From: a candidate division FCPU426 bacterium
GTDB taxonomy: Bacteria; Oederibacteriota; JAAXVQ01; JAUVAV01
DNA length: 15,162 bases
Direction: 5' to 3'
Assembly (NCBI GenBank): GCA_030637655.1
Contig: DAOWGI010000081.1
Coordinates: forward strand, 1 to 15,162
The notes under the pieces were generated by a model. That model did not search any database. It had not been told where the DNA came from and saw only the letters and a list, made by a program, of their open reading frames with translations. Position numbers and translations under genes: made by a program. Shown here one piece after another: positions 1 to 15,162 of this stretch (position 1 is its first letter; the number at the start of each line of letters is the position of its first letter).

Positions 1-145
1 ATGACCACGGCCAAAGATCGAAAAATCAAGGAAAGGGGGTAATTGCAGCATCTAAAAACCGGAAATTTTAATTATCGTTAGAGGGAAAATATAATTGACG
101 CTGATCAATAATCATGCATTGAGAGATCAATATGAGTGGGTGTAA

Positions 146-214
146 GTAAAAAGTATACGGTATCAGGTACCGGCCGCGGGGTTTATATTACCAACACATT
201 AAGCAACAAAAAAT
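146..214 (+). repeat. Cassette-boundary repeat copy 1 (core ATCAGGTACCGGCCGCGGGG at 162-181; flanks GTAAAAAGTAT...ACAAAAAAT shared with copy 2)
   Basis: Direct comparison with 1225-1296 and 2255-2292: shared core GGwATCAGGTrCCrGCCrCkGGkTT in the same orientation. Copies 1 and 2 also share GTAAAAG-TAT upstream and ACAAAAAAT about 25 nt downstream. Confidence 0.6.
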
Positions 215-215
215 G

Positions 216-243
216 TTGACAACAAATATTGTAGTGATAAAAT
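216..243 (+). promoter_or_regulatory. Sigma70-type promoter for the TA operon: -35 TTGACA (216-221), 16-nt spacer, extended -10 TGaTAAAAT (235-243). The spacer contains the small inverted repeat ACAA-ATA-TTGT.
   Basis: Consensus -35, near-consensus -10 with TG extension, and a Shine-Dalgarno site AAGGAAGGTGA at 252-262 ahead of ATG 270. Confidence 0.55.
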
Positions 244-269
244 AAGTATGAAAGGAAGGTGACTTAGTA

Positions 270-611
270 ATGGCCAAACTTGCCAACCTGTATATTTCTG
301 AGATTGCGGTTTTACAAAAAATATTTGGTAACAGCGCCCGGGTGGCAGATATGCTCAATGTCAATAGATCGTGCGTTTCCCGTTGGCATAAAGGAGAAAT
401 ACCGGATGCTGCCAATAAAGTGAAGATAACTTCACTATTACTGGTTATGGAGATGTTACAAAAGCGATTTAATGAAGAAGGCTCCAATCTATGGCTGCAT
501 GCCAACAATCCCCGGCTGGGACACCGGAAACCTATTGATCTTATCAAAACCGGAAACATTATTAATATTTTGCAGGCAGTTGAAGATATGGAAATAGGTA
601 CTTATCATTAA
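270..611 (+). CDS. Xre/MbcA/ParS-family antitoxin. N-terminal HTH-like segment (SARVADMLNVNRSCVSRWHKGE) and C-terminal DUF2384-like toxin-binding segment (WLHANNPRLGHRKPIDLIKTGN...).
   Basis: Architecture and motifs typical of Xre antitoxins of Xre-RES modules. A 2-nt gap separates it from the downstream RES ORF. Good SD. Confidence 0.65.
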   Translation: MAKLANLYISEIAVLQKIFGNSARVADMLNVNRSCVSRWHKGEIPDAANKVKITSLLLVMEMLQKRFNEEGSNLWLHANNPRLGHRKPIDLIKTGNIINILQAVEDMEIGTYH

Positions 612-613
612 GT

Positions 614-1177
614 ATGAAACTTTATAGAGTTTTTGATTGGGACAATAGTAAAAAACATTATTCCAATAAACCCGGAAGCCCGGTTTATATACCGAGAGAT
701 AAGCAGGGACGAGGCAGGCATGATATACCGCAAATAGACGGTATGTTTTACTGTAGTTTTTCATCACATTCCGCAATTGCCGAACAGCTTTATGACTTCA
801 TGAATATAAAAATAAATGATTCTATTTTTAATCTCAGCAATGGCTGGACGCAAGCTTTGGCTGAAATTGAAATAAAGGGCACTATCAAACTAGCTGATTT
901 GAATGATTCGAAATTATTGGTAAAATATGATATTAAACCATCAGAGGTTGTTACTTCTGATATAGAAAGGACCCAACAGTTAGCTGAATTTTTTCACAGA
1001 AAAAAATATGATGGAATTAAATGGTTTTCATCAATAGAATCTTCCTGGACTAATGTCAGCTTATTCGCGAGCCGCACACACAGCATATTAAAAAAGTCGG
1101 TGAAAGAAATAACCCCACTCTCCATCCGGATGCAGTTGGTACGTGAAACTTGTGATTTTATTAAAGTGAAATATTAA
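614..1177 (+). CDS. RES-domain toxin (ParT/MbcT-like NAD-targeting toxin family)
   Basis: N-terminus MKLYRVF... and block GRGRHDIPQIDGMFYCSFSSHSAIAEQ match the RES-domain pattern (Arg..Tyr..Ser..Glu; GRWN-like then YxSxxxxxAxxE). It sits immediately downstream of the Xre antitoxin. Confidence 0.65.
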   Translation: MKLYRVFDWDNSKKHYSNKPGSPVYIPRDKQGRGRHDIPQIDGMFYCSFSSHSAIAEQLYDFMNIKINDSIFNLSNGWTQALAEIEIKGTIKLADLNDSKLLVKYDIKPSEVVTSDIERTQQLAEFFHRKKYDGIKWFSSIESSWTNVSLFASRTHSILKKSVKEITPLSIRMQLVRETCDFIKVKY

Positions 1178-1224
1178 AAGTGAATAACGGGGCGATTAGA
1201 TAATACGATATTGATAATAGTCAT

Positions 1225-1296
1225 TGTAAAAGCTATTGGAATCAGGTGCCAGCCACTGGTTTCATAAAAAACTCATTGAAATGTACGACAAAAAAT
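1225..1296 (+). repeat. Cassette-boundary repeat copy 2 (core GGAATCAGGTGCCAGCCACTGGTTTCAT at 1238-1265). Begins 61 nt after the RES stop codon.
   Basis: Same motif and orientation as copies at 146-214 and 2255-2292. Contains the CCAG-CCA-CTGG mini-hairpin. Confidence 0.6.
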
Positions 1297-1387
1297 CAAA
1301 GACCGCATTGCCAAAGTCAGCCATCCTTGGCAGGTCGATTATTATAGTAGATGAATAGTATTTGAAATAAATTCATTTGGAGTAATT

Positions 1388-2218
1388 ATGGGATATGTAT
1401 TAATCTGTGTTATTCTTTTTATATTAGTTAGCATTGGTATTTATGTAAAAAAATCTTTTGAAGATTCTATTATTAAAACAATACAATATGATAATAATCT
1501 AAAAATATACGTTGGAGGAGGTTGTAATTCAATAGTTTTAACATCAGAAGATGGAAAAAAAGCACTTATAGTTGATACCAAATACTTCAAAGGTTCACAA
1601 GAATTAAGGAAAGAAGTTAACGCCCCTGACATTATTATTGTTAATACTCATTTTCACATGGATCATGCTCGCGGAAATAAACTTTATCCAAATGCTTATG
1701 TTATTTCTGGAACTTGTTCTTGGAAGCAATGGGATTTTGATACAGCTCATAGCAAAAGACCTGATAAAGTTATGAATCCAGGAGAAGAAATTAGTTTAAA
1801 AATTGGAAATGAAAATGTCCGTATAATGAATATGGGTAGTGCACATTCATCTAATGATTGTGTTGTCTATCTTGGAAATAGAAAAATATTAATTACTGGT
1901 GATCTTATATGGGTTAAAATTCATCCTATGTTATTAGATTCAAATTGTAATATTTCATTATGGTTAAAAGCTCTGGATAAAATGGATACGGTATTTGATA
2001 TAAATACAATTGTTCCTGGTCATGGTGATGTTTCAAATAAATTTGCCTTAATTGAAATGCGTGAATATTTTCTTTCAATTACAAAAGCTTTAAATGATCC
2101 AGCTGAACTGAAACTACTGAAAAATAAATATAAAGACTTTAAAACAGTTCCAATATTTGGTGGTTTCGACAAAACTGTTAAAAAAATAAAAAATGAAATA
2201 GATAAGTTTCAAAAGTAA
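1388..2218 (+). CDS. Membrane-anchored metallo-beta-lactamase-fold hydrolase
   Basis: HFHMDH (HxHxDH) zinc-binding motif, downstream His/Asp (GDLIW, GHGD), and an N-terminal hydrophobic helix (YVLICVILFILVSIGIYV). The ORF is extremely AT-rich compared with genes downstream of 2546. Confidence 0.7.
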   Translation: MGYVLICVILFILVSIGIYVKKSFEDSIIKTIQYDNNLKIYVGGGCNSIVLTSEDGKKALIVDTKYFKGSQELRKEVNAPDIIIVNTHFHMDHARGNKLYPNAYVISGTCSWKQWDFDTAHSKRPDKVMNPGEEISLKIGNENVRIMNMGSAHSSNDCVVYLGNRKILITGDLIWVKIHPMLLDSNCNISLWLKALDKMDTVFDINTIVPGHGDVSNKFALIEMREYFLSITKALNDPAELKLLKNKYKDFKTVPIFGGFDKTVKKIKNEIDKFQK

Positions 2219-2254
2219 ACGCCATCCGTGGTATTGCTTTATATGTTGACTTTC

Positions 2255-2292
2255 AAGGAAATAGGAATCAGGTGCCGGCCGCTGGTGTAAAG
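2255..2292 (+). repeat. Cassette-boundary repeat copy 3 (core GGAATCAGGTGCCGGCCGCTGGT at 2264-2286). Begins 46 nt after the MBL stop codon.
   Basis: Same core motif and orientation as copies 1 and 2. Flanked by the direct repeat GCTTTATA. Confidence 0.55.
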
Positions 2293-2448
2293 CTTTATAG
2301 GAGTAAGAATTAGTTGGATTGAAGGATTTAGTATCAGAGAAATATTAGATTATTTGCCGACAATACGGGTACAATCGGTCTGGCGAGCGGTGCTTACGGG
2401 GGTTAGATGACTATACCTTATTTAGAAGCAGTTACATTTCAGCGGAAC

Positions 2449-2486
2449 CTGCCCTCCGGCAGAACCAAGTTCTGTTTATTTTATTG
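2449..2486 (+). terminator. Overlapping hairpins CTGCC-CTCC-GGCAG and CAGAAC-CAA-GTTCTG followed by TTTATTTTATTG; rho-independent terminator-like
   Basis: Perfect 6-bp stem plus a T-rich tract. It lies between the cassette region and the DUF4062/Fic pair. Confidence 0.35.
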
Positions 2487-2545
2487 TGAATCACAAAACA
2501 GTGATGATGCCGGGGAAGATCGCCAAATAATGTAGGTGTTGAGTA

Positions 2546-2794
2546 ATGAAAAAATACCAAATTTTCATAAGCGCAGTACAGAAAGAACTTAAAGCCGAAA
2601 GACGTGCGGTGAAGGATTTCATCTTCGGTGATGTTTTGCTATCAGAGTATTTTGATGTTTTCCTGTTTGAGGACGCGTCCGCTAAGAGTAAGTCCGCGGA
2701 AAAAGCCTATCTTGATGAAGTAGGAGACTCTGATGTGTATATCGGGATACTGGGAAGGAACGCATATTACGAAACAGGAGATGATCCGTTATGA
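2546..2794 (+). CDS. Small DUF4062-like protein (82 aa), possibly a truncated domain
   Basis: IFISAVQKELKAERRAVKDFI ... FEDASAKS ... DSDVYIGILGRNAY resembles the DUF4062 signature (vFISS..dL.eER... sDvyvlilg.rYG). Its stop codon overlaps the Fic start (ATGATGA). Confidence 0.5.
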   Translation: MKKYQIFISAVQKELKAERRAVKDFIFGDVLLSEYFDVFLFEDASAKSKSAEKAYLDEVGDSDVYIGILGRNAYYETGDDPL

Positions 2795-3855
2795 TGACCA
2801 TGCAACGCTTTGCCCGAAAATTCGAAACCGTTCCGGCGACAACCTCCTGGTATTTGGCTGATCTTGGAGAGGCGCGGGGCAAACAGGAATTATTCACGCG
2901 ACAAGCTCCGCAACGCCTCAAAGCACTTCGTGAACACGCTCTCATCGAAAGTGCCGTATCCTCCAACCGGATTGAAGGCGTGGAAATCGACAAATCCCGT
3001 ATTGCTACTGTTATCTTTGGAAAGCCGCTTTTACGTGACCGGGATGAGGAGGAAGTTCAAGGTTACCGGCAAGCCCTGTCTCTGATCCATGAACAAGGGG
3101 CTGGACTCCCGATTTCAGAACAAACTGTTTTGAAACTGCATAGTTTGGCGCGCGGTCATATTTGGGACGCGGGAAAGTACAAGGAGAAAGACAGCGATAT
3201 AATCGAAAATTATCCAGACGGCCGTTCCCGGGTGCGCTTTAAAACAGTTCCCGCGGATCAGACACCGGTCTTTTTAAGAGAAATGTTGAAACTTTATAGT
3301 GAAATTATTAGAGATCACAAGATTCCTCCACTTGTACTATTGGCGGCATTTAATTTGGATTTTCTTTGCATCCATCCTTTTCGTGACGGCAATGGCCGTA
3401 TATCACGCCTCCTGTTTCTTCTGCAAACTTATCACCTGGGATTTGAAGCCGGGCGATATATCAGCCTGGAGCGTCTTATCGAACAGCACAAAGAGAGATA
3501 TTACGAAACCTTGGAGCAGAGTTCCATCGGGTGGCACGAGGGAAAACATGATCCCTGGCCCTATATCAATTACCTGCTATTCATCATAAAGACCGCCTAT
3601 AAGGAATTCGAGGAGCATCTTGGCCGGGTAGGAACTGCCAGGGGAGAAAAAACAGAACTGGTGCTCAGGGCCATTGACCGGTTTCCAGGAGGATTTCGCG
3701 TCGCTGATATTCAAAAACAGTGTCTCGGCGTGAGCGTGGACATGATCAGGAGAGTCTTGAAAAATTTACGGGTAAAAAAGCAAGTCGAGTGCCTGGGGCG
3801 CGGGCAAACTGCCCAATGGCGCAAGGCGAAAAAATGGGAATTGGGTAGTACCTAA
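2791..3855 (+). CDS. Fic family protein (AMPylation/nucleotidyltransferase fold), class II auto-inhibited, with Fic_N-like N-terminus and C-terminal winged-helix-like region
   Basis: Canonical Fic motif HPFRDGNGRISR. The inhibitory-helix motif SNRIEG (S/TxxxE[G/N]) is N-terminal to the active site. About 354 aa, typical size. Confidence 0.85.
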   Translation: MMTMQRFARKFETVPATTSWYLADLGEARGKQELFTRQAPQRLKALREHALIESAVSSNRIEGVEIDKSRIATVIFGKPLLRDRDEEEVQGYRQALSLIHEQGAGLPISEQTVLKLHSLARGHIWDAGKYKEKDSDIIENYPDGRSRVRFKTVPADQTPVFLREMLKLYSEIIRDHKIPPLVLLAAFNLDFLCIHPFRDGNGRISRLLFLLQTYHLGFEAGRYISLERLIEQHKERYYETLEQSSIGWHEGKHDPWPYINYLLFIIKTAYKEFEEHLGRVGTARGEKTELVLRAIDRFPGGFRVADIQKQCLGVSVDMIRRVLKNLRVKKQVECLGRGQTAQWRKAKKWELGST

Positions 3856-3890
3856 TGAAATGGGTAATGAAATGGGTAATGAAAGTAATG
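3853..3890 (+). repeat. Tandem 12-nt repeat TAATGAAATGGG x about 2.7, starting at the Fic stop codon
   Basis: Read directly: TAATGAAATGGG TAATGAAATGGG TAATGAAAG TAATG. Every unit carries in-frame TAA/TGA. Confidence 0.6.
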
Positions 3891-3979
3891 CAAATTCCCT
3901 GAAAATTTCCACGGGAACTATAATTTATTTAGACAGGGATGATTATTGACCATTTCACAAAACGAAAGGTGATTCAATT

Positions 3980-4566: not shown

Positions 4567-5124
4567 ATGGCTCAGATTAAGGGTTCTGCTTTGGTTCCGA
4601 GATTTAAGTATTTGGATGAGAAAACTTCACCCGGGATAAAGGAAAAGGTGATTAGCGAATTGAGTGAAAGATTTCAAGAGGTAGTTGAACGTTCGATCTT
4701 TGTGGGTAGGTGGTACCCGTTTGAATACTATGTTGAAATCAACCGTGCCATGGATAAGGTTTTAGGGAAAGGGGACTTGAGTATGATCCCGTCCTTTGGC
4801 GCTTATTCTGCCGACCAGGCCTTTACCGGGGTCTATAAATTCTTTTACAAACTCGGCTCGCCGGATTTTATTATTACGCGGGCGACTAAAGTGTGGAATC
4901 AGTATTTCCAAAACGGTTGCCTCGTGATTGAAAAAATTGGAAAGAAACGGCGGCGGCTGGAAATGCGGGATGTTGAGATTTCAGCGGAGGAACACTGTCT
5001 CTCGGTTTTAGGTTGGGTGAAAAGAACATTGGAATTATCCGGCGGTAAAAATGTTAAGGCACAAATAACGCAATGCCGGCAGCAGGGCGCCACGGCCTGT
5101 GAAATTCTCGCAGGCTGGGAATGA
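4567..5124 (+). CDS. Hypothetical protein with a Cys-rich, V4R-like C-terminal region (HCLSVLGW ... QCRQQGATAC). Possibly a small-molecule-binding or DUF2378-like protein.
   Basis: The C..G...G / C...G...C spacing is reminiscent of V4R domains. Assignment by memory only. Confidence 0.35.
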   Translation: MAQIKGSALVPRFKYLDEKTSPGIKEKVISELSERFQEVVERSIFVGRWYPFEYYVEINRAMDKVLGKGDLSMIPSFGAYSADQAFTGVYKFFYKLGSPDFIITRATKVWNQYFQNGCLVIEKIGKKRRRLEMRDVEISAEEHCLSVLGWVKRTLELSGGKNVKAQITQCRQQGATACEILAGWE

Positions 5125-6517: not shown

Positions 6518-6545
6518 GTAGAGACGTACGATCGTACGTCTCTAC
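6518..6545. terminator. Perfect 28-nt palindrome GTAGAGACGTACGA|TCGTACGTCTCTAC (14-bp stem, GATC centre) between EndoQ and M16. Terminator or regulatory hairpin.
   Basis: Read directly. It sits 10 nt after the EndoQ stop codon and lacks a strong U-tract (followed by GAGGAACGGATTTCTTTG). Confidence 0.4.
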
Positions 6546-10792: not shown

Positions 10793-10797
10793 ACAGT

Positions 10798-10835
10798 AGG
10801 GGCACAAAATTTTGTGCCCCTACGTTATTATTTTC
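10798..10835 (+). terminator. Rho-independent terminator AGGGGCACAAAA|TTTTGTGCCCCT followed by ACGTTATTATTTTC
   Basis: 12-14-bp perfect stem plus a T-tract, 6 nt after the sor stop codon. Confidence 0.65.
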
Positions 10836-15021: not shown

Positions 15022-15162
15022 CAAAAAAATAAAAACATTCACCACAGAGACACGGAGGACACAGAGTAATAAAATTGATAAAATCATAAATCTCAAAACC
15101 CCAATACTATACATTCAAAAAAATAAAAACATTCACCACAGAGACACGGAGGACACAGAGTA
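15022..15162 (+). repeat. 47-nt direct repeat CAAAAAAATAAAAACATTCACCACAGAGACACGGAGGACACAGAGTA present twice (15022-15068, 15116-15162), separated by a unique 47-nt spacer. Truncated by the window end.
   Basis: Exact identity read directly from sequence; period 94 nt. Confidence 0.7.

What the first reader, a model, noticed from the sequence alone, without database searches (positions are those of the whole stretch)
140..2300. Cassette-like array: two AT-rich gene cassettes, each bounded by a conserved site (three copies) reminiscent of, but not matching, integron attC
Three co-oriented copies of GGwATCAGGTrCCrGCCrCkGGkTT occur at 162, 1241 and 2267. Copies 1 and 2 extend to about 70 nt (GTAAAAG-TAT ... 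ACAAAAAAT). A copy sits 46-61 nt after the stop codon of each cassette ORF (TA pair; MBL hydrolase), and one more precedes the first cassette.

The cassettes are visibly much more AT-rich than everything beyond 2546. The first carries its own promoter and a TA module, which is the classic content of chromosomal integron cassette arrays.

I cannot find R''/R' core sites (RYYYAAC / GTTRRRY) or the attC bulged-hairpin symmetry. This may therefore be a different family of recombination sites used by an unseen recombinase, or a lineage-specific attC variant.
Basis: partly seen in the sequence, partly recalled or inferred. Interest (0 to 1): 0.7.

Follow-up and report, generated by a model that had tools for sequence, protein, structure and literature searches.

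The report
Short repeated junction site bounding gene modules
Three copies of a lineage-specific 25-base site separate a toxin-antitoxin module and a foreign hydrolase gene at the edge of a highly variable island, and natural populations gain or lose the hydrolase module exactly at that site, so it acts as a recombination joint; it is not an integron, and the enzyme, if there is one, is unseen.

Summary
They bound an Xre/RES toxin-antitoxin module and a foreign MBL-fold gene (GC3 0.14 against about 0.5 in host genes).

It is not an integron. There is no R''/R' pair in the whole window, no hairpin, and no recombinase among the window ORFs scanned. It is also not a dif site, and no further copies appeared in the sequence I could search.

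The key new evidence comes from independent assemblies of the same population. Their contigs break exactly at the edges of the 13-nt core shared by copies 2 and 3 (1250|1251 and 2263|2264, at k=55 and k=31). The 1026-bp MBL unit is therefore present, absent or replaced between strains, by recombination at the site.

The motif recurs in two related metagenomic lineages. There it flanks the same toxin-antitoxin block inside non-homologous spacers, and it abuts truncated genes.

The region is a mosaic of gene relics: an hsdS tail, a HipA_2 head, and a Fic block that is 96% identical elsewhere.

Best reading (about 0.45): a new simple recombination site that bounds recombinase-less modules. The main rival is homology-driven shuffling at a conserved cis element.

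The parts
159..183 (+). Motif copy 1 (GGTATCAGGTACCGGCCGCGGGGTT). It lies 13 nt after the stop codon of a gene-3'-end remnant.
1238..1262 (+). Motif copy 2 (GGAATCAGGTGCCAGCCACTGGTTT), 60 nt after the RES stop. Its first 13 nt (1238-1250) are identical to those of copy 3.
   Evidence: contigs L003, L013 and L014 break at 1250|1251
2264..2288 (+). Motif copy 3 (GGAATCAGGTGCCGGCCGCTGGTGT), 45 nt after the MBL stop. Its core is 2264-2276.
   Evidence: contigs L013, L014, L015 and L016 break at 2263|2264
103..145 (+). Relic of the last 14 or so codons of an unidentified gene (...HALRDQYEWV*). The gene continues upstream in variant contig L004. A population branch point lies at 109|110.
200..1179 (+). 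Toxin-antitoxin block: promoter 216-243, Xre/ParS antitoxin 270-611, RES toxin 614-1177. It is 93% identical to L023 and L021. The homology stops 2 nt after the RES stop and 17 nt after copy 1.
1264..1318 (+). Frameshifted relic of the 3' end of a type I hsdM-S fusion gene, 96% identical to L006 1240-1185. It directly abuts copy 2.
1388..2218 (+). MBL-fold hydrolase gene with an apparently hydrophobic N-terminus (read from the sequence; no transmembrane prediction was run). GC is 0.277 and GC3 is 0.137. Homologs at 74-78% amino-acid identity sit in ordinary chromosomal contexts without the motif.
1251..2276 (+). The 1026-bp unit that is present, absent or replaced in the natural population. 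It is bounded by the identical 13-nt cores.
   Evidence: contig ends at k=55 and k=31
2342..2520 (+). 'X' fragment: the tail of an unknown gene plus the first 38 or so codons of a HipA_2 kinase gene. Two further copies (80-82% identical) with the same truncation point lie in L006, next to motif copies.
2546..2794 (+). Short DUF4062 ORF (82 aa). Its last 15 or so nt belong to the Fic block, so it is probably truncated.
2776..3894 (+). Fic block (Fic gene 2791-3855). It is 96% identical to contigs L024-L029, where the neighbours are unrelated. Another sample (L017) diverges inside it after 3164.

Best explanation
The three repeats are copies of a lineage-specific double-stranded recombination (junction) site of about 25 bp. 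Its most conserved part is GGTGCCRGCCRCTGG, preceded by GGAATCA. The site bounds small modules that carry no recombinase, inside a hypervariable toxin-antitoxin/defence island at the edge of otherwise ordinary chromosome.

Shown:
- The site is discrete, with sharp edges and unrelated flanks on both sides.
- It recurs in related lineages.
- The module between copies 2 and 3 is polymorphic in nature, with breakpoints exactly at the 13 nt the two copies share.
- Truncated genes abut the site.

Inferred:
- A site-specific recombinase encoded elsewhere (off this contig) pairs two directly repeated sites. It exchanges strands inside the identical core.
- This excises or integrates the intervening module, and occasionally uses secondary sites, which would produce the truncated genes next to the motif.
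- In function this resembles an array of att-flanked cis-mobilizable elements or dif modules, not an integron. The site is recognised by sequence, not as a folded attC hairpin.
For: 1. Three copies against none expected by chance. No further copy appears in the remaining 13 kb.

2. Contigs of the same population from independent assemblies end exactly at the core edges.
- L003 covers window 55-1250, L013 covers 1196-2318 and L015 covers 2264 onward. All three come from one sample, with 55-nt overlaps.
- L014 covers 1221-2293, with 30-nt overhangs, which fits k=31.
- The NCBI MAG contig L016 starts at 2264.
- Other samples read straight through.
- Copies 2 and 3 share only 13 identical nt, so an assembler at k=31 or more cannot be confused by them. 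The breaks therefore need a real allele that joins the left of copy 2 to the right of copy 3, or another module at that position.

3. The motif is conserved where its flanks are not.
- L023 carries the toxin-antitoxin block at 93% identity, with a full copy (GGAATCAGGCGCCCGCCACTGGGCT) about 58 nt after the RES stop.
- L023 also has a partial copy upstream. Both sit in spacers unrelated to the window's.
- L006 has a perfect copy after a type I R-M operon, plus a 5-nt-deleted copy.

4. Gene fragments end at the motif. A KilA-N gene is cut at Pfam profile position about 62 of 107 and runs into the motif (L006). An hsdS tail starts right after copy 2.

5. All copies are co-oriented with the flanking genes, and the full copies lie downstream of an ORF end.
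Against: - No recombinase domain was found among the window ORFs scanned, nor in the L006 ORFs scanned or the called genes of L023 and L024.
- The motif has no convincing dyad symmetry or hairpin, and what little symmetry exists is not kept in copy 1.
- Only the pair with a perfect 13-nt identity shows polymorphism, which short-homology deletion would also give.
- Other polymorphic junctions in the same island (109|110, and 3164|3165 in L017) are not at a motif.
- Block homologies to relatives end at gene borders, not at the motif.
- The alternative allele itself was never seen. It is inferred from contig ends.
- Only about 6 copies are known in all.
Confidence: 0.45

Rival explanations
1. The motif is a conserved cis element with some other function, such as a protein-binding or 3'-UTR/regulatory signal placed after genes of this island. 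Being repeated, it merely provides short homology. The MBL unit would then be lost or swapped by RecA-dependent or slippage-type recombination between the 13-bp identical stretches. This resembles the promoter/stem-loop repeats that mediate modular shuffling in T4-type phages (Arbiol et al. 2010, cited from memory, not read here).
For: - Only the two copies with a perfect 13-nt identity show a polymorphic junction.
- No recombinase is in view.
- The full copies sit in intergenic DNA downstream of an ORF end and are co-oriented with the genes.
- Other junctions in the island are not at the motif, so general illegitimate recombination is clearly active here.
Against: - No terminator-like or other conserved fold, and no Rfam match.
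- No promoter consensus lies in the motif.
- A regulatory element would be expected after other genes of the genome too, but none occurs in 13 kb with a dozen or so intergenic regions.
- Truncated genes fused directly to the motif (KilA-N head, hsdS tail) are better explained by breakage and joining at the site.
Confidence: 0.27
2. The copies are non-functional relics. They would be fragments of one ancestral sequence, perhaps a protein-coding segment reading [N/Y]Q[V/A]PA[A/T]G[F/V/L], or an old att scar. These fragments were duplicated and carried along while the island decayed. On this reading the array has no present mechanism.
For: - The region is full of relics: hsdS tail, HipA_2 head (X, three copies with the same truncation point), a gene-C tail and probably a truncated DUF4062.
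- Five of nine variable motif positions fall on third codon positions of one frame (read from the sequences).
Against: - The codon-phase bias is not significant (about p = 0.4 by my binomial estimate).
- No ORF or start codon covers the motif.
- A peptide query found no protein containing it, although 8 residues could not reach significance in that search.
- Relics should have ragged, differing edges and residual flank homology. Here all full copies share the same 25-nt edges and the flanks are unrelated.
- The motif keeps 84-100% identity in lineages where adjacent spacers are unalignable.
Confidence: 0.15
3. The array is a true integron cassette array, or a CALIN (a cluster of attC sites lacking an integrase), with a lineage-specific attC variant.
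For: - Gene-sized, AT-rich, co-oriented units, each followed by a repeat.
- A toxin-antitoxin module with its own promoter, as in sedentary chromosomal integrons.
Against: - No RYYYAAC...GTTRRRY pair on either strand anywhere in the window (0 against 3.8 expected).
- 141-nt stretches around the copies do not share a fold, and most fold no better than shuffles.
- The conserved part is 25 nt of sequence, not structure.
- No IntI in the window.
- The toxin-antitoxin and MBL homology blocks do not end at the repeat.
Confidence: 0.03

Closest known systems
Tandem arrays of att-flanked cis-mobilizable elements (CIMEs) and decayed integrative elements (reviewed in PMC5704250, surfaced by the search; only its title and abstract were seen, so the description of CIMEs rests on my own knowledge)
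   Same: Directly repeated short sites bound units that lack their own recombinase. Units are gained or lost by recombination between the repeats. The cargo is toxin-antitoxin, defence or foreign genes. Relics of neighbouring genes are present.
   Different: The units here are only about 1 kb. No tRNA or intact target gene and no integrase-bearing partner element is visible. The site sequence matches no known att.
dif modules of Acinetobacter plasmids (XerC/XerD pdif sites; PMC13141974; PMC6449649, abstract only)
   Same: Small modules without a recombinase, including toxin-antitoxin and resistance genes, are separated by conserved short sites of about 28 bp. Recombination occurs only between sites with identical central bases.
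   Different: pdif sites consist of an 11-bp XerC arm, a 6-bp spacer and an 11-bp XerD arm (TTATGTTAAAT), and they alternate in orientation. Here the sites are all direct, have no XerD-like arm, and are chromosomal.
Integron attC cassette arrays
   Same: A co-oriented array in which each gene unit is followed by a repeat, with AT-rich foreign genes and a toxin-antitoxin cassette.
   Different: No R''/R' or L''/L' architecture, no hairpin, sequence conservation rather than structure conservation, no IntI or attI seen, and modules with internal mosaic joints.
PeSL regulatory repeats of T4-type phage hyperplastic regions (Arbiol et al. 2010, from memory)
   Same: Short conserved intergenic repeats flank small accessory genes and mediate modular gain and loss.
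   Different: Those repeats contain a recognisable promoter and stem-loop and act through homologous recombination. No such signals are seen in this motif.

Membership tests
Integron (attC cassette array) | R'' (RYYYAAC) and R' (GTTRRRY) core sites 50-150 nt apart | tested here: not met
   0 pairs on either strand in the whole window, against 3.8 in shuffles.
Integron (attC cassette array) | Imperfect palindrome that folds into a bulged hairpin as single-stranded DNA | tested here: not met
   DNA folds of 141-nt stretches around the three copies, on both strands, gave z = -1.7, -0.6, +1.8, -2.8, -0.7 and +1.8. No common stem spans the motif.
Integron (attC cassette array) | Adjacent IntI tyrosine recombinase with attI and Pc | tested here: inconclusive
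   No recombinase domain among the window ORFs scanned. The window is a whole contig that starts 158 nt before copy 1, so the upstream side is unseen.
dif / pdif modules (Xer) | 28-bp site made of an 11-bp XerC arm, a 6-bp spacer and an 11-bp XerD arm (TTATGTTAAAT-like) | tested here: not met
   By inspection of the copies against the pdif table in PMC13141974, there is no TTATG-type arm and only weak dyad symmetry.
dif / pdif modules (Xer) | Sites alternate in orientation around each module | tested here: not met
   All three copies, and those in L006 and L023, are direct.
REP/BIME-type dispersed repeats | Many copies dispersed over the genome, in both orientations, and palindromic | tested here: inconclusive
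   No copy in the other 13 kb of the window, in the other loci of relatives, or in 660 kb of control loci. One true hit in the GTDB representative genomes and none in JGI metagenomes with the strict pattern. No palindrome. The source genome as a whole could not be searched.
att-flanked cis-mobilizable elements (CIME-like tandem arrays) | Directly repeated att sites bound units that lack an integrase | tested here: met
att-flanked cis-mobilizable elements (CIME-like tandem arrays) | Excision or integration by recombination between the repeats | tested here: inconclusive
   Contig ends at 1250|1251 and 2263|2264 in several assemblies imply an alternative allele joined in the shared core. The junction itself was not observed, and no sign of a circular form was seen.
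att-flanked cis-mobilizable elements (CIME-like tandem arrays) | A cognate integrase-bearing element and a defined target gene or tRNA at one end of the array | not testable with these tools
   The upstream side is off-contig. No tRNA is present in the window.
CRISPR array | Short regular repeats with 25-70 nt spacers | tested here: not met
   The spacing is 1079 and 1026 nt and contains complete genes.

The most novel reading that the evidence does not exclude
A previously undescribed cassette platform in an uncultured anaerobic bacterium. In it, a double-stranded 'simple' site of about 25 bp, rather than a folded attC, is used by an unidentified recombinase. The recombinase would capture, excise and shuffle single-gene or toxin-antitoxin modules next to type I R-M, Fic and HipA-type defence genes.
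Probability: 0.3. Interest if true: 0.75.

Novelty: new variant of a known kind. Interest (0 to 1): 0.5.

Why it matters
If the site is a genuine recombinase target, it defines a new way of building small-module arrays outside integrons and Xer/dif modules. The lineage is uncultured and known only from metagenomes. It would also give a searchable signature, the 25-nt site, for finding the enzyme and further arrays.

It bears on an open question as well: how single genes move in and out of defence and toxin-antitoxin islands without carrying their own mobility genes.

If the rival is right, this is a clean natural example of short-repeat-mediated module loss. That is useful but ordinary.

Tried and rejected
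- Rfam at E<=1 gave nothing at the motif, and ARAGORN found no tRNA or tmRNA.
- DNA folding of all three copies on both strands showed no shared hairpin.
- Scans of public collections with the strict motif gave little.
  - GTDB representative genomes: 2 hits, 1 true (L006).
  - JGI metagenomes: 3 hits, all high-GC chance matches.
  - IMG/VR: 1 chance hit, and none with a relaxed pattern.
- A scan for the X fragment in IMG/VR gave chance hits only.
- blastn of 1-2600 against plasmids and phages returned nothing relevant.
- A concatenated peptide query tried to find an intact gene containing the motif-encoded peptide, the gene-C tail or the gene-A tail. Only the HipA_2 head found a partner.
- Neighbourhoods of MBL homologs showed no motif and no shared flanks.
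- I considered that copies 1 and 2 share a unit of about 70 nt, or that every copy is followed by an hsdS tail. Shuffle tests rejected this.
- I considered a coding origin for the motif (frame NQVPAAGF). The third-position bias is not significant, and Pfam found nothing for the longest such ORF in L023.
- I considered a sigma-54 promoter on the minus strand (TGGCAC is present). The -12 element is absent and copy 1 lacks GGCAC.
- I considered a dif site. The GC skew is monotonic and genes point away from the array.
- A covariation fold of the X fragment was uninformative.
- A literature search for the motif string returned 0 papers.
Full report
**The observation**

The 25-nt pattern GGWATCAGGTRCCRGCCRCKGGKTT occurs three times, all on the + strand. 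The copies lie at 159-183, 1238-1262 and 2264-2288, with none expected in 200 shuffles. Neither half of the motif nor a profile HMM built from five copies finds another copy in the remaining 13 kb.

The units between the copies are 1079 and 1026 nt long.
- The first holds a TG-extended sigma-70-like promoter at 216-243 (11 of 12 matches), an Xre/ParS-type antitoxin (270-611) and a RES toxin (614-1177).
- The second holds an MBL-fold hydrolase (1388-2218).

Composition differs sharply. GC is 0.328 for 270-2218 against 0.470 downstream. The GC3 of the MBL gene is 0.137, against 0.45-0.57 for the host genes.

The claimed 70-nt extension of copies 1 and 2 does not hold. The flanks of the copies are no more alike than shuffled sequence.

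**What the array is not**

- Not an integron. There is no RYYYAAC...GTTRRRY pair anywhere in the window (0 against 3.8 in shuffles). The DNA around the copies shows no shared hairpin on either strand (z from -2.8 to +1.8).
- No known RNA family or tRNA is present.
- No recombinase domain occurs among the window ORFs scanned. Beyond the island these ORFs are ordinary chromosomal genes: M16 peptidase, Band 7, desulfoferrodoxin, FakA/DegV, a response regulator and a protein with a T9SS-type tail. The organism is an unclassified '[bacterium]' MAG.
- Not a Xer/dif site. It has no XerD-type arm, the copies are direct rather than alternating, and the GC skew does not switch.
- It did not behave as a dispersed REP in what I could search. 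The strict pattern gave one true hit in 185,579 representative genomes. It gave only high-GC chance hits in JGI metagenomes and IMG/VR. The HMM found nothing in 660 kb of control loci.

**Population evidence**

The window is a whole 15,162-nt NCBI contig. Exact-protein look-ups recovered other assemblies of the same population.

- In one sample, three contigs tile the region with 55-nt overlaps: L003 (window 55-1250), L013 (1196-2318) and L015 (2264 onward).
- A Logan contig from another run is L014 (1221-2293), with 30-nt overhangs as expected for k=31.
- An NCBI MAG contig, L016, starts at 2264.
- Other samples read straight through.

Position 1250 is the last base, and 2264 the first base, of the 13-nt stretch GGAATCAGGTGCC. 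That stretch is the only sequence copies 2 and 3 share exactly. A de Bruijn graph at k=31 or more cannot branch there because of the two copies themselves. So the samples must contain an allele in which the left flank of copy 2 continues with the right side of copy 3, or with another module.

The direction of the branches (out-branch after 1250, in-branch before 2264) fits an empty or replaced site, not a circular or tandem form. This is an inference from contig ends. The alternative junction itself was not recovered.

Two further branch points in the island are not at a motif: 109|110, and inside the Fic gene after 3164 in L017. General structural turnover is therefore high here.

**The motif in relatives**

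*L006*, from a MAG of another sample, has a perfect copy about 276 nt after a type I hsdR / hsdM-S operon. A second copy, with a 5-nt deletion, lies further on, and a KilA-N gene cut at about profile position 62 of 107 runs into it.

*L023* carries the toxin-antitoxin block at 93% identity (window 200-1179).
- A full copy (GGAATCAGGCGCCCGCCACTGGGCT) lies about 58 nt after the RES stop.
- A partial copy lies upstream.
- Both are embedded in spacers that cannot be aligned with the window's.

The 25-nt unit therefore keeps the same edges and 84-100% identity while the sequence on both sides is exchanged. That is the pattern expected of a recombination joint.

**A mosaic of relics and mobile blocks**

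- 1264-1318, directly after copy 2, is a frameshifted, 96%-identical remnant of the 3' end of the L006 hsdM-S gene.
- 2342-2520 ('X') is the tail of an unknown gene plus the first 38 or so codons of a HipA_2 kinase gene. An intact homolog, P0001 (L018), is followed by an ORF whose N-terminus I read as DUF3037-like; I did not test that assignment. X occurs twice more in L006 with the same truncation point.
- 103-145 is the tail of a gene that continues upstream in variant contig L004.
- The Fic block 2776-3894 is 96% identical to contigs L024-L029, where its neighbours are unrelated.
- The MBL gene resembles, at 79-80% nucleotide identity over about 1424-2200 only, genes in ordinary chromosomal contexts of AT-richer organisms with no motif nearby.

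The modules are therefore not clean cassettes. Their inner blocks have their own joints.

**Interpretation**

The best-supported reading is that the motif is a lineage-specific, sequence-recognised recombination site. It bounds recombinase-less modules, much as in att-flanked cis-mobilizable elements or dif modules (PMC5704250, abstract only; PMC13141974, read).

Four things are shown:
- the discreteness and recurrence of the site;
- its association with ORF ends and its co-orientation with the genes;
- the polymorphism at the shared core;
- the truncated genes that abut it.

Two things are inferred: that a dedicated recombinase, encoded off-contig, acts on it, and that strand exchange occurs inside the identical core. 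I put this at about 0.45.

The main rival (about 0.27) is a conserved cis element of other function. Its repetition would simply allow homology- or slippage-driven loss of the MBL unit. Only the pair with 13 identical bases is seen to recombine, and no enzyme is in view.

A pure-relic reading (about 0.15) draws on a third-codon-position bias in the frame [N/Y]Q[V/A]PA[A/T]G[F/V/L]. That bias is not significant. The identical edges and unrelated flanks of all copies also argue against it.

An integron proper is essentially excluded (about 0.03).

**Verdict**

The integron analogy fails on every defining feature tested, and the evidence for an active, enzyme-driven system is indirect.

I rate the novelty as a new variant of a known kind: site-flanked, recombinase-less modules with a new site family.

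Interest is moderate (0.5). It would rise sharply if read-level junctions or a cognate recombinase were found.

Noticed in passing
window 15022-15162 (continues in L030 10216-10560): A unit of about 94 nt (CAAAAAAATAAAAACATTCACCACAGAGACACGGAGGACACAGAGTAATAAAATTGATAAAATCATAAATCTCAAAACCCCAATACTATACATT) is tandemly repeated at least three times after the YgaP-like gene. An inverted partial copy (TCTCTGTGTCCTCCGTGTCTCTGTGGTGAA) follows downstream. The window contig ends inside the array, and the longer scaffold has a run of N there.
   Followed up: partly
window 2342-2520; L006 974-1152 and 283-431: The 'X' fragment (unknown-gene tail plus HipA_2 head) exists in three copies at 80-82% identity, all truncated at the same codon of HipA_2 and all next to motif copies. 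A relic propagated after truncation is odd. It may itself be a functional part of the array, such as a leader or a second site.
   Followed up: partly
window 2776-3894; L024-L029: The Fic gene, with 15 nt upstream and 39 nt downstream, is 96% identical to contigs of another assembly, where it sits behind a hydrolase gene and an ORF I read as a PLD-helicase N-terminal remnant (that reading is from memory; Pfam found nothing). The gene moves as a block. A short GGGTAATGAAAT-type tandem repeat follows the stop codon in both versions.
   Followed up: partly
window 3164|3165 (L017): In another sample the contig diverges inside the Fic gene, giving a 124-aa truncated product followed by an 8-bp hairpin (CAAAGGTGCCAACCACCTTTG).
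   Followed up: no
window 109|110: Contigs L001 and L003 (k=55) and L002 (k=31) all start with the k-mer that ends at 109. This implies a further population branch point 49 nt upstream of copy 1, at the left edge of the gene-tail relic and not at a motif. L004 shows yet another upstream sequence.
   Followed up: partly
window 6518-6545 and 10796-10823: Perfect 28-nt palindromes lie immediately after the TIGR00375-family gene and the desulfoferrodoxin gene. They are probably strong terminators.
   Followed up: no
L024 about 4960-5100: A palindromic insertion of about 150 nt with inverted ends (CCTAGGAGCCTGTCGGACTTAAG ... CTTAAGTCCGACAGGCTCCTAG) interrupts the ORF upstream of Fic. It looks MITE-like.
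   Followed up: no
window 172-158 (minus strand): On the minus strand, copy 1 forms a 5-bp hairpin (CGGTACCTGATACCG) followed by a T-rich run and scores as terminator-like. Copies 2 and 3 keep the T-rich run (the A-rich left flank on the plus strand) but not the stem.
   Followed up: partly
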